Shown: positions 1 through 10,189 of the stretch, piece after piece
How the letters are laid out: the number at the start of each line of letters is the position of its first letter
Position numbering within the stretch: the stretch's first letter is position 1
NCBI RefSeq assembly: GCF_046105845.1
Contig: NZ_CP151004.1
Direction: 5' to 3' (one strand)
DNA: 64,000 nucleotides
Origin: Escherichia coli
Lineage (GTDB): Bacteria > Pseudomonadota > Gammaproteobacteria > Enterobacterales > Enterobacteriaceae
The notes under the pieces: model-generated
Databases searched by the model: none
The model's input: only the letters and a program-made list of their open reading frames with translations
What the model was told of the DNA's origin: nothing
Position numbers and translations under genes: made by a program

Positions 1-202
1 CTGCAGGGGTTAATCCGGCGAAAGCCAACTCTGTCAGACCACCGGTAATTAAGCCAGTCTGAATATCACCGAGAATAGCGCCAGTTAGGGTACAAACGAT
101 TATCGGGCGGAATAAAAATAAGGCTTCCAGCCAAAAATCAATCCCCAGAACGAAAACTAACGCCGCCAGGGATAATCCCTGAAGTAGGGTTATTTCATGC
201 AT
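1..202 (-). CDS. agaC: PTS N-acetylgalactosamine/galactosamine IIC component, N-terminal part only (gene continues beyond window start)
   Basis: Minus-strand reading from ATG at 202 gives MHEITLLQGLSLAALVFVLGIDFWLEALFLFRPIIV..., hydrophobic PTS IIC-like; sits directly downstream of agaB in conserved aga order. Confidence 0.8.
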   Translation of the reverse strand, partial: MHEITLLQGLSLAALVFVLGIDFWLEALFLFRPIIVCTLTGAILGDIQTGLITGGLTELAFAGLTPA

Positions 203-240
203 TTTTATTACCTCAAACCAATATTAAGGCGATTTTAGAT

Positions 241-717
241 TTAGTCAGGGATTTGTTCTTTTTGATCGCCAGGGACGTCCTGAATGAAAACATTCACGCC
301 ACGTTGTTTAATAAAACGTAAGTCCGTGAGATCCTGGTCATCGACATAAACTTTACTGCTGATTTGCTTTTTCCCTTCCGAGAAATGCATATTGCCGACG
401 TTGACATCTTTCAGGTCAATACCACCTTCTACCAATTTACGTACCGTTTGTGGCGTACGGCAAATCAGGAAGATCTTTTGATGCGGTGCAGCTTTGCCGA
501 TGACGTTAATGGTTTTTTCGATAGTAAAGAAACGAATGCCAAAGCCGTAGGTTTCCGCGGTAATACCCATTAATTTCTGTTGAATATCATCGTTAGCGAC
601 AACATCATCCACGACTACCAGCAGATTTGCACCGATGGTGGATGTCCAGGTCACGCCAACCTGACCGTGAACCAGACGGTTATCAATACGGGTTAAGAGA
701 ATATTTGGACTGCTCAT
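241..717 (-). CDS. agaB: PTS GalNAc-specific IIB component
   Basis: 158-aa ORF; LHGQVGVTW motif typical of mannose-family PTS IIB; synteny. Confidence 0.9.
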   Translation of the reverse strand: MSSPNILLTRIDNRLVHGQVGVTWTSTIGANLLVVVDDVVANDDIQQKLMGITAETYGFGIRFFTIEKTINVIGKAAPHQKIFLICRTPQTVRKLVEGGIDLKDVNVGNMHFSEGKKQISSKVYVDDQDLTDLRFIKQRGVNVFIQDVPGDQKEQIPD

Positions 718-883
718 TGTGTAATCCTCACCATAAAGTTGAATAATATAATTTTTTTAAATATATTATTATTGCGATATTTTACTGATGTATTTATTAA
801 GGTTTAGTTATCTCCTTTACCATTAAGGCACTCCCCGATATTAATCGGGAAGTACATTGGGATAAATCATAAAAAAATAATGA

Positions 884-1756
<873 letters not shown>

Positions 1757-2911
1757 TTATGCCTGCCACGGATGAATGATTACGCCTTGCACCACGCGGT
1801 TAACGGTGCCACTGGCTGATGGGGTATCCGGCGTATTGCCCATGTGCAGCGACTGCATCAGTGCAAACGTCTGGGCGTACATCAGGAAGCAAAATGCCTG
1901 CTCAACGTCGATAAAGTGACGTGACGGCGGCAGGATAATATGTGGACCGGCAGCAACGATGTCTGTGCTTTCCGCGGCGATGGCGATTACGCGCATTGCC
2001 TGGTTGTCACGACGAAGTTCAGCCAGCAGATCAAGATCATACTGACGGGTGTAAGGGTGGCTGGAGACAAATACCACCACCAGCGTTTCGTTATCGACCA
2101 GCGATTTCGGGCCATGACGGAATCCGGTCGGGGAATCATAAAAGGCCGCCAGTTTACCCGCCGTCAGTTCCAGTACTTTCAGCGCCGACTCGCGTGCTGC
2201 GCCCTGTAAGCCACCGCTGCCGAGATAAACGATCCGTTTCCACGGTGCGTAACCAAACACACCTTCGCTGAAATCGCCCAGTGAGGTCAGGATCGCCTGG
2301 CAACGATCCGCCACGTCGCGGAAGCTCTGGCTATTGATCGTCTCAGGTGCGAAAACCGCGAGGCAGCTGGCCATCATGGTGGTAATGCTGCTGGTCATCG
2401 CAAAGCCGCGATCGTGCGTTTCTGCGGGCATCAGCAGGGCAAACGCGTTATCGCTGTTGATCGCGTTTTGGTAAAGAGCGCCCGCTTCGTTGCAAGTGAT
2501 CGGCAGGTGATAGCATTCTGGTACAAATTGATTTGCCAGTTCCACGGCAGCGACGCTTTCTGGGCTGTTGCCGGATCGACCGAAGGAGATCAACAGCAGC
2601 GGATGAGCTGGATTCAGGTAGTCCATCGGATTAGTGACCAGATCGGTGGTCGGTACGGCGCTGAAGTTTTTACCGGTATGGCTGGCGAGCCACGGCGCGA
2701 TGATGTCACCGATAAATGCCGAGGTTCCGGCTCCGGTCAGGATTACCCGCAGATTCTCTTTGCGCAGTAACGGTTCAAGGAAGTTATTGAGCGCGGAACG
2801 TAGCGCGTCGATGTTGGTGAGTGAACGGATCCATGCGCGAGGCTGATGGCGGATCTCTTCTTCAGTCCATGTACCGGTTGCGGCAGCAGCAGGGGTGTAA
2901 TTTTCTGGCAT
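1757..2911 (-). CDS. agaS: SIS-domain sugar isomerase/deaminase (galactosamine-6-phosphate deaminase/isomerase)
   Basis: 384-aa ORF; position between agaA and kbaY. Confidence 0.9.
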   Translation of the reverse strand: MPENYTPAAAATGTWTEEEIRHQPRAWIRSLTNIDALRSALNNFLEPLLRKENLRVILTGAGTSAFIGDIIAPWLASHTGKNFSAVPTTDLVTNPMDYLNPAHPLLLISFGRSGNSPESVAAVELANQFVPECYHLPITCNEAGALYQNAINSDNAFALLMPAETHDRGFAMTSSITTMMASCLAVFAPETINSQSFRDVADRCQAILTSLGDFSEGVFGYAPWKRIVYLGSGGLQGAARESALKVLELTAGKLAAFYDSPTGFRHGPKSLVDNETLVVVFVSSHPYTRQYDLDLLAELRRDNQAMRVIAIAAESTDIVAAGPHIILPPSRHFIDVEQAFCFLMYAQTFALMQSLHMGNTPDTPSASGTVNRVVQGVIIHPWQA

Positions 2912-3260
2912 AACTCAATCCTTAGTCTGATGAACTTGACGTCGGGCGTTGTCGCTTTCGCTTACCTTTCGTTTCATTTCACTTGGTGATGTCTTTCGTT
3001 GATTAAAATCTATAGAAAAGAAACTGAAAGTTCAATGGAGAAAAAAGAAATAAAACGAAATTTGTGATCGTTGAAAGAAAAGACAAGGGAAGATTAAAGG
3101 ATTGCGTGATAACGTCGCTATGTTCACCGATTGCCGGATGCGGCGTACCGTAGGTCGAAGAAGACGCGTCAGCGTCGCATCCGACACCCTGCACAGAGCA
3201 CAACGAAAGAAAAAGAAAGGCCTTACGGGGGAAGTGAAGGCCCAATAAAGGAGCAAACCA
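2912..3260. promoter_or_regulatory. agaS upstream region with AgaR-operator-like motifs and a REP-like palindrome pair (3133..3188)
   Basis: TTTCGTTTCATTTCAC, GAAACTGAAAG and AAACGAAATTTG motifs; GCCGGATGCGGCGTACCG...GACGCGTCAGCGTCGCATCCGACA. Confidence 0.55.
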
Positions 3261-4394
3261 TCAAAACGAAGCTAATTGACCCTGAATCCAGATTTGTTGC
3301 ACATGCAGCCCGCTATCCAGCGCAACGACGCTGGCGCGTTTGCCCGGTTTAAGCGATCCCAGAACATCATCAACACCCAGCATACGCGCCGGATGCAGCG
3401 ACGCCATATGGATGGCTTCCGCAGGCGTTACGTCCGTCAACTCGACCATGTTGCGCACTGCCGCATCGACAGACAGCGTACTGCCCGCCAGCCCACCGGA
3501 CGCGGTACGGACAACGCCACCGTGCATCTGCACTTCTTCACCACATAACGTATAGCGACCATCCGGCATCCCTGCTGCCTGCATCGCGTCGGTGATGAGC
3601 ACGATTCTCTCTTTCGCACAGCAACAACACAGCGACATCGCCGCCGGATGCACATGATTACCATCGGCTATCAGTTCCAGCCAGGCGCGCTTGTCCGTTA
3701 ATCCCGCGCCAACCATTCCCGGTTCGCGGTGATGTAAACCTGTCATCCCGTTATAGCAATGCACCAAGCCGTCGGCACCAGCGTCAAACGCGGCACGGGT
3801 TTGTTGCCAGGTCGCCGCGCTATGCCCCAGCATCACCCGTACGTTTTGCTGTTTAAGATGGCGGATGGCCTGCAATGCCCCTTCTTTTTCCGGTGCCAGC
3901 GCTACCACGCGCAAGGTGTGCTGAGAAACGGCAATCAACTGATCCAGCTCGGCAATTTCCAGCTCGCGAAACAGCTCCGGCGGATGCGCGCCTTTATTCT
4001 GCGGCGTGAAGTATGGTCCTTCGAGATAACTCCCCAGCACTTGCGCACCAGGTCCGCCGCGTTGGCAACGTTGAGCAATACGTTTCAGCGCCGCATGAAT
4101 GGTATTAAGCGGAGCGGTTACGGTGGTCGGTAACCAACTGCCGACACCTTCGCGTGCTTTGTGCATTGCCAGCTTGTCGAGCACATCCGGCGCGTCATCC
4201 ATTACATCAACGCCCGCACCACCGTGTACATGGGTGTCGATGTAAGCGGGGCAGAGCAGTTCCGCATCGCGTTCAGTCACGCCCACTGGAATCGGTTCGA
4301 TTGCTGCGATGACACCGTCAGCAATACGCAACTGATGGTCATCGAGCCATCCCTCTTCAGTCAGCAGCCTTCTGGCGCGCAGAACGTGTGTCAT
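3261..4394 (-). CDS. agaA: N-acetylgalactosamine-6-phosphate deacetylase, full length
   Basis: ORF track 3261..4415; preferred start is ATG at 4394 (MTHVLRARRL...) which overlaps the agaF stop as ATGA; amidohydrolase HxH motif (DTHVHGG). Confidence 0.88.
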   Translation of the reverse strand: MTHVLRARRLLTEEGWLDDHQLRIADGVIAAIEPIPVGVTERDAELLCPAYIDTHVHGGAGVDVMDDAPDVLDKLAMHKAREGVGSWLPTTVTAPLNTIHAALKRIAQRCQRGGPGAQVLGSYLEGPYFTPQNKGAHPPELFRELEIAELDQLIAVSQHTLRVVALAPEKEGALQAIRHLKQQNVRVMLGHSAATWQQTRAAFDAGADGLVHCYNGMTGLHHREPGMVGAGLTDKRAWLELIADGNHVHPAAMSLCCCCAKERIVLITDAMQAAGMPDGRYTLCGEEVQMHGGVVRTASGGLAGSTLSVDAAVRNMVELTDVTPAEAIHMASLHPARMLGVDDVLGSLKPGKRASVVALDSGLHVQQIWIQGQLASF

Positions 4395-4825
4395 ATTCCT
4401 TCCTCGACCGGACATTCTTCATGGCAGCGGCCTAACTCGTCCACCAAACTGGTCAGCCCACGGTGTCCACACTCCAGCGCCTGCACACGGAACTCTTCAC
4501 CGCTTAACCCTTCGCGCTCCAGCACCATCTCCAGTAGCAGTTGCAAATTGGTGCCGGTGATCACTTCACAGCCCGGTTTTTGTATCGCCAGCGTTGAAGC
4601 TACGCGAAACGGCGTGCCGCCCAGCAAATCCGTCAGAAAAACAATGCCGTCTTCACAATCCAGTTGGGCGAAGGCCTCTTCAAGCTGCGATGTAAGCAGC
4701 GCGGTGCTTGAGGTTTCCGGAAAATCGATGGCGATAAACTGCGATTGCTCGCCGAGGATTTGCTTCATTGCTTTTTCCATGCCGCTGGCAAATCCGCCAT
4801 GCCCTGTCAAAATAATACTTAACAT
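4391..4825 (-). CDS. agaF: PTS galactosamine-specific IIA component
   Basis: 144-aa ORF; small PTS IIA of mannose family; gene is absent from K-12 (from memory), so its presence marks a non-K-12 aga locus. Confidence 0.85.
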   Translation of the reverse strand: MLSIILTGHGGFASGMEKAMKQILGEQSQFIAIDFPETSSTALLTSQLEEAFAQLDCEDGIVFLTDLLGGTPFRVASTLAIQKPGCEVITGTNLQLLLEMVLEREGLSGEEFRVQALECGHRGLTSLVDELGRCHEECPVEEGI

Positions 4826-4842
4826 CTAATACCTCATTGTAT

Positions 4843-5727
4843 TTAAAGGAAATGACAGAATTTACCGACGATGCCGAGAACCACGGTCACTGCAATCAGG
4901 CGCAGCGGACTCCAGCCGCGGCGTACCAGCCAGAACATGGTCAGGGTGTAGACCAGCGGTAAGAAGGCAGGCATCAGTTTGTCGATAACATCAGCCTGTA
5001 ACTTAACCACTGCGTCGCCCGCTGTGATTTCCAGCGTGGTGCTTAAACGAACATAGGTTGCCACCAGCGCGCCGATTACCGTCATCCCAACGATAGACGC
5101 AGCATGGCCGACTTTTTTGGTATTCGCTTTAATGAGTGGAATCGCCGCCACGCCCATGCGGTAAGCATAATGCGCCAGACCAAAACGCAGCCCCAGGTGT
5201 ACCACGTTGAACAGCACAATAAAGACGACTGCGCCAAGAATGGAGCCTTGCAATGCCAGACTGGCTCCAATCCCGCCACAAATCGGCAGTAGCGTTAGCC
5301 AGAACATTGCATCGCCAATCCCGCCAAGCGGCGCACCGACGGCAATTTTGGTGCTCTGAATACTGTTAACGTCCTGCTTAGAACGCTCCATCGCAAGGAT
5401 AATGCCGATAACAAACGTCACCAGAAACGGATGGGTATTGAAGAAACCCATATGCCCCTTCATGGCGCGCGCCAGGTCGCGTTTATTAGTGTGGATCTTT
5501 TTCAGAGCAGGCAGCAGACCGTACAACCAGCCAGAAGCCTGCATACGTTCGTAGTTAAAAGACGCTTGTAACAGCATGGAACGCCAGGCGACGCGGTTGA
5601 TATCTTTTTTCGTCAGCTCCGCGCCAATGCTCTGATCTTCATACACGTTTTCATTGACGCCAGTCAGCAATGTTTCTTCGTTTTCACTGACGTTCGGCAG
5701 GGTGGTTTGATTAGATGCCATCTTCAA
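4843..5727 (-). CDS. agaE: PTS galactosamine-specific IID component
   Basis: 294-aa hydrophobic ORF; IID-like; synteny. Confidence 0.85.
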   Translation of the reverse strand: MKMASNQTTLPNVSENEETLLTGVNENVYEDQSIGAELTKKDINRVAWRSMLLQASFNYERMQASGWLYGLLPALKKIHTNKRDLARAMKGHMGFFNTHPFLVTFVIGIILAMERSKQDVNSIQSTKIAVGAPLGGIGDAMFWLTLLPICGGIGASLALQGSILGAVVFIVLFNVVHLGLRFGLAHYAYRMGVAAIPLIKANTKKVGHAASIVGMTVIGALVATYVRLSTTLEITAGDAVVKLQADVIDKLMPAFLPLVYTLTMFWLVRRGWSPLRLIAVTVVLGIVGKFCHFL

Positions 5728-6490
5728 ATTCCTCTTTCTGTGCCGCAGGTTGAGTCGGTTCAGGAGATTTACGCAGCAGATCGATCAGCGCCATCGCCAG
5801 CGCGGCGGCAGCAATAGCCAGCACCGGTAACTTGAGCCAGGCGGCGGCAACAAAGCCCAGGATGAAGTAGGGGATGTAGACGTTTTTCATCATGATTTTC
5901 AGCAGCACGGCAAAACCGATTGCTGGCATGATGCCGCCCGCGACGCCGAGGCCGTCGATTAATCGTTGCGGCAGGACATCAATGATGGTTTTGGCATGTT
6001 CTGCGCCGAAGTAGATAGGCAGGAAAGCGCAGAGAAAATAGAAAGTGCCGAGTGCCAGCAATGCCAGATAGTTCACGCGTTCAATGCCGCGTGTATCGGC
6101 GTTCTCCGCCATCCGGTCGCAGCGAGACATCACGCCAGACATCACCGAGAACAGGAAGGTAATCCCCATCTGTACTGCAACAGCGAAAGGTACGGCGACA
6201 CCGACCGCGACATCGGGTTTCACGCCAGTAGTAATGGCAAACGCCGTGCCGACGATAGTACCGATAATCACGTTAGGCGGTTGTGCGCCTGCCAGCGGGG
6301 CCAGCCCCATCCACACCAGTTCCAGCGTACCGCCGGTTAAAATACCGGTATGCAGATCGCCAAGTACCAGCCCGACCAACGGGCCGAGGACCACCGGGCG
6401 GTGCATATGGGTTAGGCCGTTAAACATATCCAGGCCAGCGATAAAGGCGATAATGCCCAACGCGAATGCCTGCAACAGACTGATTTCCAT
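5711..6490 (-). CDS. agaW: PTS GalNAc/GalN IIC component
   Basis: 259-aa hydrophobic ORF; full length here. Confidence 0.85.
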   Translation of the reverse strand: MEISLLQAFALGIIAFIAGLDMFNGLTHMHRPVVLGPLVGLVLGDLHTGILTGGTLELVWMGLAPLAGAQPPNVIIGTIVGTAFAITTGVKPDVAVGVAVPFAVAVQMGITFLFSVMSGVMSRCDRMAENADTRGIERVNYLALLALGTFYFLCAFLPIYFGAEHAKTIIDVLPQRLIDGLGVAGGIMPAIGFAVLLKIMMKNVYIPYFILGFVAAAWLKLPVLAIAAAALAMALIDLLRKSPEPTQPAAQKEEFEDGI

Positions 6491-6500
6491 GATGAATCCC

Positions 6501-6974
6501 TCAAAGTAATTTAAAGAGGTCCACAGCAGGCTCTGTCGGGACGCCCTGAACGAAGCATTCCACCCCAGCGGCTTTCAGGTCGTTAAATGCTGCGATATCG
6601 CCCGCATCTACAGAAACCGTTTTGGCGATTTGTTGCTTGCCATTGGCGTAGTGCATATTGCCAACGTTAATGCGATTCACCGGAACGCCACCTTTCACCA
6701 GCGTCAGGAAATCGGCAGGTGTTTTACAAACCAGCAGGATTTTCTGTCGATCGGCGGCGCGATGAATGTTGTCGATGACTTTTTGCAGCGTCCAGAAACG
6801 TACGGCGATCCCTTCTGCCAGTACCATTTCCATCAGGTTTTGTTGTACCGGATCTTCGGCAACCTCATCGTTGGCTACCAGCACCAGATTTGCCCCCGCA
6901 AATCCGACCCACTGAACGCCGACCTGACCGTGAATCAAGCGTTCATCAATCCGGCTTAAAACAATATTTGGCAT
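6501..6974 (-). CDS. agaV: PTS GalNAc/GalN IIB component
   Basis: ORF track 6501..7010; likely start MPNIVLSRIDERLIHGQ at 6974; paralog of agaB. Confidence 0.85.
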   Translation of the reverse strand: MPNIVLSRIDERLIHGQVGVQWVGFAGANLVLVANDEVAEDPVQQNLMEMVLAEGIAVRFWTLQKVIDNIHRAADRQKILLVCKTPADFLTLVKGGVPVNRINVGNMHYANGKQQIAKTVSVDAGDIAAFNDLKAAGVECFVQGVPTEPAVDLFKLL

Positions 6975-6996
6975 AGCGTGTTCCTCTTTGTTTTGC

Positions 6997-8277
6997 TTAT
7001 TGGCCTTCACAGGCTGTGTGGTACTGCGCCAGGATGTCCTGAATATGGTTGATAATGAGTTCCCGTGGCGTTGGCTGCAGCTCGCCGGAGCGAACTTTCA
7101 CGTATTGCAGCGGCAGATACTGGCTGATGAGCGGTAGCGGAATTGGTGAATCCGCCAGATTACGAACCAGATGAGCGAAAGCGTCATCAATCTGGCTGTC
7201 CGGCCAGTAATAGCGCACGCGATCCGAGTAGCTATAACCACGCGCCAGGCGACGTGCGTTGCCGTCACCGTGGTAGTGGCTTTGCCAGTATTCCGGGCGG
7301 TCGAGCATCACGTTTTCCAGCACCTGACGCAGACCAGAACAGGCTTTTGCTGGTACCAGTTCTTCTTCAATCGCCGCCAGAGAGAACAGAGCTTCACGCA
7401 GGGCGAAGGTCAGCGCCGGGCCAACTTTCAGAATGGCAAAGTGGTCAATCACCAGCTGGCGCAGCGATTGCGGCGTTTGATAATCGGTAGAGTGCGCTTC
7501 GAAAATCAGCGTTTCGTAGTTTTCGACCATCTGGCTTAAGGCGGTCGCTTTAGCTGGCTGATAATCAATAACGTTGGTGTGATCGAATTCGACGCCGGGT
7601 TGTACCACCAGAGCAATGATGCGTGGCCAGATGGCACTCAGACCCTGCTTTTCAAAGGCGTGACGATGGGCTTCCAGCGTGGCGCGGGCGGCATCCGGCG
7701 TGGTGACCGCCAGCTCGCTTAAGGTTTCATGCGCGCCGCCAGGTACCGGTACTTCGGTACCAATGACATACTCCAGATCGGCTTCGCCAAAGTGTTCAAG
7801 ACAGGTTTCTTCCGCCACTTTCGCCAGACGGGCGGCGCGTTCAGCCACGATGTCATCAGTTAAGGGAATTGGATCGTCCTGACAGGACATACTGCAATCA
7901 AGGTGAATTTTTTTGAATCCTGCCGCCACGTAGCTTTTAATCAAATCATCGGCATTGGCCATTGCCTGAGCGGCTGGCAGGTTTTGCCAGCGGTTTGGCC
8001 CCAGATGGTCGCCTCCCAAAATCAACGCATCCTGTGGGAAATTCAACGAGTCGGCGAGCTGACAAACAAAGCCGCGAAAATCGGCGGGCGTCATTCCGGT
8101 ATAACCGCCGAACTGGTCCACCTGATTGGAGGTTGCTTCAATCAGTAACGGCGTTTGGTTTGCACTGGCGTAGCGGATTGCAGCTTCCAGCACCAGCGGA
8201 TGTGCGGAACAAACGGCATAAATCCCATTTGTTTTACCCTCTTTGTGCTGTCTCACCATTTCTGTCAGATGTTTCAC
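6997..8277 (-). CDS. kbaZ: tagatose-bisphosphate aldolase non-catalytic subunit
   Basis: 426-aa ORF; divergent from agaR. Confidence 0.9.
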
Positions 8278-8525
8278 TTTCCTCTCCAGTTCAGATTACT
8301 GCGATATTAATCTTTCGTTTTGTTTCAGTTGATACTGCGCCATGGTGAGATAAAAATAAAACGAAAGATAATAGTTTTCTGATCTGATTCACAAAAGAAA
8401 CATAATGAAAGCCACTGAAACGAGAGTAGCTTGCGCCAATGGGTAAGGTGGGCTTGCATTTGCTTAATAGAAAGGCGTTAATAGGCAAAACGAAATGAAA
8501 CGAAAGTTTTACGAAAGGACTTACT
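8278..8525. promoter_or_regulatory. kbaZ/agaR divergent promoter region with reiterated AgaR-operator-like motifs
   Basis: Multiple copies of CTTTCGTTT / AAACGAAAG-type motifs (e.g. AAACGAAATGAAACGAAAGTTTTACGAAAGG at ~8490..8520). Confidence 0.6.
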
Positions 8526-9335
8526 ATGAGTAATACCGACGCTTCAGGTGAGAAGCGAATGACAGGCACCAGCGAGCGACGAGAACAGATCATTCAGCGT
8601 CTGCGACAGCAAGGGAGTGTGCAGGTTAACGATCTGTCGGCATTGTATGGCGTATCTACTGTGACGATCCGCAACGATCTGGCGTTTCTGGAAAAGCAGG
8701 GGATCGCTGTGCGTGCCTATGGCGGCGCGTTGATCTGCGATAGCACGACGCCGTCAGTCGAGCCATCAGTGGAAGATAAAAGCGCGCTGAACACCGCAAT
8801 GAAACGCAGCGTTGCGAAAGCTGCCGTTGAGTTGATTCAGCCAGGTCATCGGGTGATTCTCGATTCCGGGACCACCACTTTTGAGATTGCTCGTCTGATG
8901 CGCAAGCACACTGACGTAATTGCGATGACCAACGGTATGAACGTGGCTAATGCGTTGCTGGAAGCTGAAGGCGTTGAGCTGCTGATGACCGGGGGGCATT
9001 TGCGCCGTCAGTCGCAATCTTTTTACGGCGATCAGGCTGAGCAATCGCTGCAAAATTACCACTTCGATATGCTGTTTCTTGGTGTAGATGCGATCGATCT
9101 GGAGCGCGGCGTCAGTACGCATAATGAAGATGAAGCCCGTTTAAACCGCCGGATGTGCGAAGTTGCGGAACGGATCATCGTGGTCACCGATTCCAGTAAA
9201 TTCAATCGTTCCAGTTTACATAAGATCATTGATACTCAACGTATCGACATGATCATTGTTGATGAAGGCATTCCTGCGGATAGCCTGGAAGGGCTGCGAA
9301 AGGCTGGGGTTGAAGTGATTCTGGTCGGGGAGTGA
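8526..9335 (+). CDS. agaR: DeoR-family transcriptional repressor of the aga regulon
   Basis: 269-aa ORF with N-terminal HTH and DeoR C-terminal domain. Confidence 0.9.
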
Positions 9336-9389
9336 GAAAGTGTGCCCGCTGGTCAACACGAATGCGTTCGGCGGGCATTGTGAACACCA

Positions 9390-9854
9390 TCAATGGGGTT
9401 CTTCTGTCTCTCGGGTGAGGGTTTCCCAGTCGGCAGGAGGATGTCCTCTTTTTAACATTTTGCTGAATACGGTATAGGCATCTGTTTTTTTACCGTAGGT
9501 GCGCAGAGTGTTTTCATCGTTCATCCATCCCAGAATGATGACTTTCTCTTTTTCACTATAACGAAAGAAGAGACGATAACGACCAGCACCAAATTTTACC
9601 CGTGACCAGTCTTTATTTTTCCCAGAGCCTAACGACTTGCCATGACGGAATGCCGGTGATGATGGATTGACCGTGATATGCTCCTCAATCACTTTATGGA
9701 CTACCGCCAATAACTTTGTGGCGGCTTTTCTCTGATAATTTTCAGGATCTTTTCCCTTTAATGTCTCGACTTCGGCAACTAAAGCGTCGTAGGTTTCCTG
9801 AAAACAGGGATGAGCATATAGCGCCCAACCATTAACCCTTTGTGGAAAATCCAT
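9390..9854 (-). CDS. yhaV: type II toxin (ribonuclease) YhaV
   Basis: 154-aa ORF immediately downstream of and overlapping prlF. Confidence 0.88.
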   Translation of the reverse strand: MDFPQRVNGWALYAHPCFQETYDALVAEVETLKGKDPENYQRKAATKLLAVVHKVIEEHITVNPSSPAFRHGKSLGSGKNKDWSRVKFGAGRYRLFFRYSEKEKVIILGWMNDENTLRTYGKKTDAYTVFSKMLKRGHPPADWETLTRETEEPH

Positions 9855-10189
9855 TATTCGTCGTCGCCAATCTCATCATCAATGTTGACGTCCATGCCAG
9901 CGACAAGTTTCTTTCCTTGTTGAATGTTGAATGGACGAGTTTTTTGCGGGTTGTTCTGGATATCTGCATCCAGAAAACGCAAAAATGCATTCATAGTATG
10001 ATCCTCCTGTTCATCTCCCAGTCGGCACATAAATACTTGCCCACCAGGCAGAATTTCGTAATGAATGCTGTCCTGGCCTGGCTTCAGTTTTAAGGCCTCA
10101 CGCACTGGCGCGGGGATAGTTGTTTGTCCGCGTATCGTGACCTTTGATTCAGTGGTCAGTACAGCGTGAGAGCGAGCATTAGCGGGCAT
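9854..10189 (-). CDS. prlF: type II antitoxin PrlF (SohA), AbrB/SpoVT-type DNA-binding
   Basis: 111-aa ORF with acidic C-terminus; 1-nt overlap with yhaV. Confidence 0.88.
   Translation of the reverse strand: MPANARSHAVLTTESKVTIRGQTTIPAPVREALKLKPGQDSIHYEILPGGQVFMCRLGDEQEDHTMNAFLRFLDADIQNNPQKTRPFNIQQGKKLVAGMDVNIDDEIGDDE

What the first reader, a model, noticed from the sequence alone, without database searches (positions are those of the whole stretch)
8278..8525. Dense array of AgaR-operator-like half-sites in the kbaZ/agaR divergent region and upstream of agaS
CTTTCGTTT / AAACGAAAG-type motifs recur at least five times in the 248-bp divergent region and again at 2940..3090 upstream of agaS, consistent with multi-site cooperative repression by AgaR. 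With the full agaWEFA set present, the regulon here is larger than in K-12.
Basis: partly seen in the sequence, partly recalled or inferred. Interest (0 to 1): 0.2.

Follow-up and report, generated by a model that had tools for sequence, protein, structure and literature searches.

The report
Known AgaR repressor binding sites
The repeated CTTTCGTTT-type motifs are the already characterised binding sites of the AgaR repressor in front of the E. coli N-acetylgalactosamine genes; they are real and conserved across enteric bacteria, but ordinary.

Summary
CTTTCGTTT occurs at 1 mismatch or less five times in the 248-bp kbaZ/agaR spacer (8278-8525) and four times in 2940-3090. Local shuffles give 0.2-0.3 and never reach the observed counts.

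The motifs are not palindromic half-sites. They are the 5' parts of roughly 24-bp tandem-repeat operators (TTTCR TTTYR TTTCN YTTKK). Six operators stand out:
- O1 8309-8332(+)
- O2 8347-8370(-)
- O3 8391-8414(-)
- O4 8486-8509(-)
- OS1 2963-2986(+)
- OS2 3041-3064(-)

A matrix built from other genera scores them at 22-35 bits, against 9.4 bits for the best hit elsewhere in the 64 kb.

The spacer differs from E. coli K-12 at 5 of 248 bases, and AgaR is 268/269 identical. [quoted passage not shown] In 73 related loci from many Enterobacterales genera the operators keep their positions.

O3 was missed.

K-12 lacks window 3820-6114, so agaWEFA is indeed complete here.

Verdict: correct interpretation, already known, low interest. 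Cooperativity and promoter positions are inferred, not shown.

The parts
8309..8332 (+). Operator O1 (AATCTTTCGTTTTGTTTCAGTTGA), nearest to kbaZ and inverted relative to O2-O4
   Evidence: It has 3 mismatches to the 24-nt AgaR consensus and scores 28.2 bits with a matrix built from non-Escherichia sites. The block 8311-8337 is conserved in 73 sequences. The O1-O3 distance is 82 bp in 61 of 67 loci.
8347..8370 (-). Operator O2 (TATCTTTCGTTTTATTTTTATCTC), overlapping the likely kbaZ core promoter
   Evidence: It has 4 mismatches and scores 22.1 bits. The block 8350-8375 is conserved.
8378..8393 (.). CRP-like site: on the - strand TGTGA-ATCAGA-TCAGA, 9 of 10 matches to TGTGA-N6-TCACA
   Evidence: Read directly from the sequence. 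GATCTG..TC.CAAAAG is invariant in 12 genera. CRP dependence of the kbaZ promoter is recalled from Ray & Larson 2004 and was not verified here.
8391..8414 (-).
   Evidence: It has 2 mismatches and scores 25.5 bits. It has 3 mismatches or fewer in 65 of 73 loci, at a fixed offset of about -137 from the agaR ATG.
8418..8426 (-).
   Evidence: It lies in the only unconserved stretch of the spacer, 8412-8449.
8454..8482 (+). Candidate agaR promoter PR: TTGCAT, 17-bp spacer, GTTAAT. The spacer holds a conserved single GAAAGG unit at 8470-8475. This is an inference.
   Evidence: CTTGCAT, AAGAAAG and TTAATAG are invariant or nearly so across genera. The consensus scan did not report it because its -10 element is weak.
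8486..8509 (-). Operator O4 (AAACTTTCGTTTCATTTCGTTTTG), 17 bp before the agaR start codon; the autoregulatory site
   Evidence: It has 0 mismatches and the top score of 35.4 bits. It has 3 mismatches or fewer in 69 of 73 loci, at -40 to -42. It corresponds to the AgaR site in PMC8667592 Table S3.
8526..9335 (+). agaR, the DeoR-family repressor gene
   Evidence: Pfam finds HTH_DeoR at residues 18-74 and DeoRC at 89-247. The protein is 268/269 identical to K-12 AgaR. It is annotated as agaR in the matching genomes.
3261..8277 (-). Regulated operon kbaZ-agaV-agaW-agaE-agaF-agaA, all intact
   Evidence: Shown by the ORF list, the annotation of the collinear genome and tblastn. K-12 lacks 3820-6114.
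2963..2986 (+). Operator OS1 (TACCTTTCGTTTCATTTCACTTGG), between the likely agaS promoter and the agaS start
   Evidence: It has 0 mismatches and scores 34.1 bits. The block 2966-2985 is conserved in 72 sequences. It sits at about +52 from the agaS ATG across genera.
3007..3035 (-). Candidate agaS promoter PS: TTGAAC, 17-bp spacer, TAGATT. The spacer holds conserved GAAAAGAAACTGAAAG (3015-3030). This is an inference.
   Evidence: The block 3004-3036 is conserved. The matrix score is only 4.8 bits. The promoter matches 8 of 12 positions, just below the tool's threshold.
3041..3064 (-). Operator OS2 (CAAATTTCGTTTTATTTCTTTTTT), upstream of the likely PS
   Evidence: It has 1 mismatch and scores 31.0 bits. 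The block 3046-3060 is conserved. It sits at about +130 from the agaS ATG in many genera.
2955..3001 (+).
   Evidence: Column conservation is low at both. Neither gives an independent matrix hit.
3197..3243 (-). Terminator-like hairpin (3218-3243) with a U-rich tail, just 3' of agaA. The tail produces a weak AgaR-consensus hit at 3199-3222.
   Evidence: Fold result. The hit has 4 mismatches and scores 11.9 bits, which is below the shuffle maximum of 19.4.
1757..2911 (-). agaS, first gene of the second regulated operon (agaS-kbaY-agaB...)

Best explanation
These are the operators of AgaR, the DeoR-family repressor of the E. coli aga/gam (N-acetylgalactosamine and galactosamine) cluster.

Operator anatomy. 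Each operator is about 24 bp and is built of tandem, non-palindromic T-tract units: TTTCR TTTYR TTTCN YTTKK. The two strong TTTC cores are 10 bp apart, which places them on one face of the helix.

Arrangement. Four operators lie in the kbaZ/agaR spacer. O1 is inverted relative to O2, O3 and O4. Two strong operators, OS1 and OS2, bracket the agaS promoter, and OS1 is inverted relative to OS2.

Mechanism. Without the sugar, AgaR occupies these sites. It blocks the kbaZ promoter through O1-O3, which flank and overlap the core promoter and a CRP site. It blocks its own promoter through O4, at or just after the likely start point. It blocks the agaS promoter through OS1 and OS2. A GalNAc- or GalN-derived effector bound to the C-terminal DeoRC domain releases AgaR, and CRP then helps the kbaZ promoter.

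What is shown and what is inferred:
- Shown here: the existence, statistics, anatomy and cross-genus conservation of the sites, and near-identity to K-12.
- Shown in the literature for K-12: AgaR binding at the three promoters, and induction by GalNAc.
- Inferred: the exact promoter positions, cooperative or looped binding, and the identity of the effector.
For: Locus identity. The aga cluster is annotated in collinear E. coli genomes.

Similarity to K-12. The spacer is 243/248 identical to K-12, and the first ~170 bp upstream of agaS are nearly identical. AgaR is 268/269 identical and carries HTH_DeoR plus DeoRC domains.

Consensus scan. All 8 hits with 4 mismatches or fewer to the 24-nt consensus in the 64 kb fall in the two regions, two of them with 0 mismatches. 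Whole-window shuffles give a mean of 1.1. Local shuffles give p<0.001.

Matrix scan. With a matrix built only from non-Escherichia sites, the six operators score 22-35 bits. The best hit elsewhere scores 9.4, and the shuffle maximum is 19.4.

Comparative evidence. In 73 loci there are 287 hits at 3 mismatches or fewer in 41 kb of regulatory DNA, against 2 hits in 1.09 Mb elsewhere. Operator offsets and spacings are fixed: O1-O3 is 82 bp in 61 of 67 loci, and O4 lies at -40 to -42 in all 73. The phylogenetic footprints coincide with the operators while the sequence between them drifts.

Literature. [quoted passage not shown] PZ and PS are induced 5- and 20-fold by GalNAc. The promoters PR, PZ and PS are named (PMC3668189). 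An AgaR site has been used in synthetic promoters and represses there (PMC8667592).
Against: - No binding or expression data exist for this particular strain.
- The 24-nt consensus was recalled from memory and could not be verified in the paper library. It was itself derived from the K-12 copies of these sites, so the consensus scan is partly circular. The cross-genus matrix used sites picked with that same consensus.
- O2 is a weak match, with 4 mismatches.
- Promoter positions are ambiguous for kbaZ. The CRP-like site fits either about -41 or about -63, depending on which -10 element is used.
- One paper describes the sites as 'palindromes' (PMC4694137), which the sequence does not support.
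Confidence: 0.93

Rival explanations
1. The motif density is a by-product of AT-rich promoter DNA (T-tracts, UP-element-like sequence, H-NS or Fis preference) and not a set of specific repressor sites.
For: The spacer has only 37% G+C. T-tract motifs are common in promoters. One consensus hit, at 3199-3222, is better explained as a terminator U-tract.
Against: Local dinucleotide-preserving shuffles never reach the observed counts. Other AT-rich intergenic regions of the window score at most 9.4 bits. The sites keep their sequence, position and orientation across many genera while the neighbouring spacer sequence diverges. AgaR binding has been published for the near-identical K-12 sequence.
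Confidence: 0.02
2. The sites are bound mainly by another regulator, such as a DeoR-family paralogue like GatR or a nucleoid protein, and AgaR plays only a minor role in this strain.
For: E. coli has several DeoR-family paralogues, and the paralogous gat/kba pathways share enzymes. Nothing was measured in this strain.
Against: agaR is adjacent, intact and 99.6% identical to the characterised repressor. The motif co-occurs with agaR orthologues in all 73 loci. Deleting agaR makes the regulon constitutive in E. coli C and BL21 (PMC3668189; PMC10101011).
Confidence: 0.02
3. The sites form a true higher-order repression complex. An AgaR oligomer bridges O4 with O1-O3, and OS1 with OS2, by DNA looping. 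The array would then be one machine, not a set of independent operators.
For: Spacer length is 249-251 bp in 63 of 73 species, and operator spacings are nearly invariant. O1 and OS1 are inverted relative to the upstream operators. DeoR and GlpR, of the same family, use multiple operators and looping; this is established knowledge recalled from memory.
Against: The fixed spacing may simply reflect two promoters, a CRP site and four operators packed into a small space. The centre-to-centre distances are not all whole helical turns: 38, 44, 82 and 95 bp correspond to 3.6, 4.2, 7.8 and 9.0 turns. No oligomer or looping data for AgaR were found (one search returned only a DeoR C-terminal domain structure).
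Confidence: 0.3

Closest known systems
AgaR operators of E. coli K-12 at PR, PZ (kbaZ/agaZ) and PS (agaS), from Ray & Larson 2004, Mol Microbiol 51:813
   Same: This is the same locus with the same gene order. The spacer is 243/248 identical, all TTTC cores are identical, and AgaR is 268/269 identical. The three promoter regions carry the sites, as published.
   Different: The kbaZ operon here is complete (agaW, agaE, agaF, agaA), whereas K-12 has a 2.3-kb deletion. There are five substitutions outside the cores, one of which weakens the flank of O3. The REP-like element between agaA and agaS differs.
GlpR multi-operator control of the glp regulon (DeoR/GlpR family, E. coli)
   Same: It is a repressor of the same family with a sugar-phosphate sensor domain. 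Several operators per promoter overlap and flank the core promoter, with CRP co-regulation. This is established knowledge, recalled from memory.
   Different: GlpR operators are palindromic, whereas the AgaR sites are tandem direct repeats. The two regulate different regulons.
DeoR repression of the deo operon through three operators with DNA looping
   Same: Both use multiple, separated operators for one DeoR-family repressor. This is the model for cooperative, looped repression. Recalled from memory.
   Different: The DeoR operator is a 16-bp palindrome, and DeoR is an octamer. Looping has not been shown for AgaR.
Comparative reconstruction of AgaR regulons in Proteobacteria (Leyn et al. 2012, J Biol Chem 287:28047)
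   Same: That study used the same kind of cross-species operator conservation as found here in 73 Enterobacterales loci.
   Different: The paper is not held in the library, so its motif could not be compared directly.

Membership tests
AgaR operator set of the E. coli aga/gam regulon | Sites lie upstream of agaR, kbaZ (agaZ) and agaS | tested here: met
   O1-O4 lie in 8278-8525, between kbaZ and agaR. OS1 and OS2 lie in 2963-3064, upstream of agaS.
AgaR operator set of the E. coli aga/gam regulon | Sequence matches the published AgaR consensus or a published site | tested here: met
   There are two exact matches and six further hits at 4 mismatches or fewer to WRMMTTTCRTTTYRTTTYNYTTKK, all in the two regions. 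The consensus was recalled from memory and not verified in the library. The site in PMC8667592 Table S3 matches 8487-8506(-) apart from one extra T in the table.
AgaR operator set of the E. coli aga/gam regulon | Orthologous to the K-12 sequence on which binding was shown | tested here: met
   The spacer is 243/248 identical, the part proximal to agaS is nearly identical, and the region is collinear with K-12 apart from the 2.3-kb deletion.
AgaR operator set of the E. coli aga/gam regulon | The cognate DeoR-family repressor gene agaR is present and intact | tested here: met
AgaR operator set of the E. coli aga/gam regulon | Physical binding by AgaR, and derepression by GalNAc or GalN | not testable with these tools
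   Published for K-12, E. coli C and EDL933 (PMC3668189). Not measured for this strain.
Cooperative or looped multi-operator repression (DeoR/GlpR type) | Cooperative binding to separated operators, with helical-phase dependence | not testable with these tools
   Only indirect evidence is available: conserved spacing and spacer length.
CRP-dependent promoter (kbaZ) | A CRP site matching TGTGA-N6-TCACA at an activating distance from the start point | tested here: inconclusive
   The site at 8378-8393 matches 9 of 10 positions and is conserved. The start point is not known here, so the distance (about -41 or about -63) is undecided.

The most novel reading that the evidence does not exclude
Two features point to AgaR forming one looped repression complex that couples PR and PZ, and similarly brackets PS. 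First, operator geometry is near-invariant across Enterobacterales: O1-O3 is 82 bp, and the spacer is 249-251 bp in 63 of 73 species. Second, there are extra conserved single units in the promoter spacers (GAAAGG at 8470-8475, and GAAAAGAAACTGAAAG at 3015-3030). This architecture has not been demonstrated for AgaR. It would involve tandem-repeat recognition by a DeoR-type helix-turn-helix, for which the sequence search of solved structures found no DNA-bound example.
Probability: 0.25. Interest if true: 0.3.

Novelty: already known. Interest (0 to 1): 0.08.

Why it matters
It matters little beyond annotation. The finding confirms that this strain carries the standard, intact regulatory apparatus of the N-acetylgalactosamine/galactosamine pathway, together with a complete agaVWEFA transporter and deacetylase set. 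The strain should therefore, unlike K-12, be able to induce growth on GalNAc.

The cross-genus analysis gives a cleaner operator map than a 9-mer count. It resolves six strong 24-bp tandem-repeat operators, their fixed spacing, and which 9-mer hits are spurious. That map could guide promoter engineering or a looping study of AgaR.

Tried and rejected
Literature:
- I tried to read Ray & Larson 2004 and Leyn et al. 2012 directly. Neither is held.
- A full-text search for the consensus string found nothing. The consensus therefore rests on memory plus its two exact matches.
- Searches with 'AgaR' are swamped by the word 'agar'.

Scans:
- The generic promoter scan found no - strand promoter for kbaZ and none for agaS. 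The promoter positions are my inference from conserved hexamers.
- Rfam found no RNA family in either regulatory region. The only hit was rnpB at 16599-16975.

Rejected as operators:
- I considered 3199-3222 as a third agaS-side operator. I rejected it in favour of a terminator U-tract (11.9 bits, below the shuffle maximum).
- The 9-mer hits at 8418, 2955, 2993 and 8511 are not conserved.
- The two consensus hits outside regulatory regions in related loci were checked. The Mixta hit (L082 10976) lies in an unrelated AT-rich spacer, and the E. albertii hit (L005 8) lies where agaS is missing. Both are treated as chance or uninformative.

Other:
- The palindrome description found in PMC4694137 was rejected, because the sites are not self-complementary.
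- The sequence search of solved structures gave only a DeoR C-terminal domain, so there is no structural model of DNA recognition.

Full report
**Locus.** Window 1-9400 is the E. coli aga/gam cluster, in the reverse of the K-12 orientation.
- The - strand carries agaB 241-717, kbaY 884-1744, agaS 1757-2911, agaA 3261-4394/4415, agaF 4391-4825, agaE 4843-5727, agaW 5711-6490, agaV 6501-7010 and kbaZ 6997-8277.
- The + strand carries agaR 8526-9335. It is followed by yhaV, prlF and garD.
- The kbaZ/agaR spacer is exactly 8278-8525, 248 bp.
- The 248-bp spacer is found in 5318 of 5426 complete E. coli genomes, and in all but one record at 95% identity or more. It is core-genome DNA.

**Observation.**
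- Exact CTTTCGTTT occurs 4 times in 64 kb against 0.81 expected. All four are in the two aga regulatory regions.
- At 1 mismatch or less there are five in 8278-8525 and four in 2940-3090, plus two at 3201-3219.
- Local dinucleotide-preserving shuffles give 0.23 and 0.31 on average, and none of 2000 reaches the observed numbers.
- The two regions are the densest TTTC/GAAA stretches of the window.

**Anatomy.** The 9-mer is the 5' part of a longer unit.
- I scanned with the 24-nt AgaR consensus WRMMTTTCRTTTYRTTTYNYTTKK. I recalled it from Ray & Larson 2004 and could not verify it in the library.
- It gives two exact matches, at 2963-2986(+) and 8486-8509(-). All eight hits at 4 mismatches or fewer in the 64 kb lie in the two regions.
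- The sites read as tandem pentamers, for example C TTTCG TTTCA TTTCG TTTTG. Information peaks at TTTC cores 10 bp apart.
- They are direct repeats, not palindromes, despite the wording in PMC4694137.
- The site nearest each structural operon (O1, OS1) is inverted relative to the upstream ones.

**Link to published work.**
- The spacer differs from K-12 MG1655 at 5 of 248 positions, none in a TTTC core. The ~170 bp proximal to agaS are nearly identical.
- AgaR is 268/269 identical to K-12 AgaR and has HTH_DeoR and DeoRC domains.
[quoted passage not shown] It names PR, PZ and PS, reports 5- and 20-fold induction of PZ and PS by GalNAc, and notes the 2.3-kb deletion in K-12.
- PMC8667592 used an AgaR site, CTTTCGTTTCATTTTCGTTT, that represses a synthetic promoter. 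It equals window 8487-8506(-) apart from one extra T in their table.

**Comparative test.** One scan of species-representative genomes with AgaR returned 80 loci from many Enterobacterales genera, including Escherichia, Klebsiella, Citrobacter, Enterobacter, Salmonella, Yersinia, Serratia, Pantoea and Mixta. AgaR identity ranged from 81 to 98%.
- kbaZ and agaR are divergent neighbours in all 80 loci.
- In the 73 loci with both starts mapped, consensus hits at 3 mismatches or fewer number 287 in 41 kb of regulatory DNA, against 2 in 1.09 Mb elsewhere.
- The hits sit at fixed offsets from the agaR ATG: O1 at -219(+), O2 at about -181/-176(-), O3 at -137(-) and O4 at -41(-).
- O1-O3 is 82 bp in 61 of 67 loci, O3-O4 is 96 bp in 44 of 73, and the spacer is 249-251 bp in 63 of 73.
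- Upstream of agaS the hits sit at about +52(+) and about +130(-).
- Column conservation and a 12-genus alignment show footprints that coincide with these features:
  - O1 plus TTGATACTG, at 8311-8337;
  - O2, at 8350-8375;
  - a CRP-like site plus O3, at 8376-8414;
  - CTTGCAT, at 8451-8460;
  - AAGAAAGG..TTAATAG, at 8468-8485;
  - O4, at 8490-8506;
  - OS1, at 2966-2985;
  - the block 3004-3036;
  - OS2, at 3046-3060.
- The stretch 8412-8449 drifts freely between genera.
- A matrix built only from non-Escherichia sites scores the six window operators at 22-35 bits. The best hit elsewhere in the window scores 9.4, in the tdcR/tdcA spacer. The shuffle maximum is 19.4. This matrix is partly circular, because its sites were chosen with the consensus.

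- Right: the motif, its enrichment, AgaR as the binding protein, both locations, and the K-12 comparison. K-12 lacks window 3820-6114.
- To refine:
  - The hits at 8488 and 8498 are one operator, O4.
  - The hits at 8418, 2955 and 2993, and the ACGAAAGG at 8511, are not conserved and are probably not sites.
  - O3 was missed because its cores are TTTCA and TTTCT.
  - The 'larger regulon' means more intact genes in the same operon, not more operators.

**Mechanism (inferred from anatomy).**
- *PR.* The conserved TTGCAT-N17-GTTAAT (8454-8482) would start transcription near 8489. O4 would then cover the start point, giving autorepression.
- *PS.* TTGAAC-N17-TAGATT (3035-3007, - strand) would start near 3000. 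That places OS1 at about +14 to +37, a conserved GAAAG-rich spacer in the core, and OS2 at about -41 to -64.
- *PZ.* The CRP-like site (8378-8393) fits two readings. In the first, the -10 element is TATTTT (8358-8353) and CRP sits near -41, with O2 over the core, O1 downstream and O3 abutting CRP. In the second, the -10 element is TATCAA (8334-8329) and CRP sits near -63, with O1 over the -10 element and start point and O2 over the -35 element. In both readings AgaR would occlude RNA polymerase and crowd CRP.
- The generic promoter scan did not find these weak promoters, and no start-site data were available.
- Cooperativity or looping is suggested by the fixed geometry and by the family precedent of DeoR and GlpR (recalled from memory). 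It was not tested.

**Not operators.** The hit at 3199-3222 (4 mismatches, 11.9 bits) is the U-rich tail of a hairpin (3218-3243) directly after agaA. It is best read as the terminator of the kbaZ-agaA operon. Rfam finds no RNA family in either region.

**Verdict.** The feature is real, correctly interpreted, and already characterised experimentally in K-12 and by comparative genomics. Interest is low.

Noticed in passing
window 3197-3243 (- strand): A hairpin, GGGCCUU...AAGGCCU, followed by UUCUUUUUCUUUCGUU lies 18 bp after the agaA stop codon. It looks like an intrinsic terminator for the kbaZ-agaA operon, and its tail mimics an AgaR site. The loop is too long for the terminator scan to report it.
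   Followed up: partly
window 3100-3190: A REP/BIME-like inverted repeat (TGCCGGATGCGGCG 3132-3145 / CGTCGCATCCGACA 3173-3186) lies between agaA and agaS. Its left half differs completely from the K-12 sequence at the same place.
   Followed up: partly
window 3820-6114: This is exactly the segment missing in K-12 MG1655 (the 2.3-kb agaW'-'agaA deletion). The two K-12 alignment blocks overlap by 10 bases in K-12 coordinates (L002 4068-4077), which suggests a short repeat at the deletion junction. For the 9.4-kb query, 4932 of 5411 matching complete E. coli genomes have one place covering at least 80% of it.
   Followed up: partly
whole window (1-9400, 9400-34000, 39001-64000): The best identity to any of 5426 complete E. 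coli genomes is only 98.9%, 99.0% and 98.5% over these long stretches, and about 97.4-97.9% to K-12. Gene content is standard (aga, prlF-yhaV, gar, rnpB, tdc, cyuPA, yhaJKL ... uxaA, ygjK, ebgA, fadH). The source may be a sparsely sampled Escherichia lineage.
   Followed up: no
window 8278-8525, compared with the E. coli genome collection: The 248-bp spacer gives 5828 places in 5321 records, with up to 4 places in one genome and 3 places on plasmids. Some strains therefore carry extra copies of this regulatory region.
   Followed up: no
L005 (Escherichia albertii NBRC 107761), 1-2740: After agaA the locus has no agaS or kbaY. Unrelated genes follow instead (DUF302, a solute-binding protein), so the second aga operon is missing or moved in this species representative.
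   Followed up: partly
PMC8667592 Table S3, compared with window 8487-8506(-): The published AgaR site, CTTTCGTTTCATTTTCGTTT, carries one more T than the genomic sequence CTTTCGTTTCATTTCGTTTT, which is identical in K-12 and in this window. The extra T would shift the phase of the third repeat unit in their synthetic constructs, unless it is a transcription error in the table.
   Followed up: no
window 3063-3069: TGTGATC immediately upstream of OS2 is conserved across genera, but the other half of a would-be CRP site is not. Its role is unknown.
   Followed up: no
window 9390-10189 and 16599-16975: The prlF-yhaV toxin-antitoxin pair lies directly downstream of agaR. RNase P RNA (rnpB, 318.6 bits) lies after garK.
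   Followed up: yes
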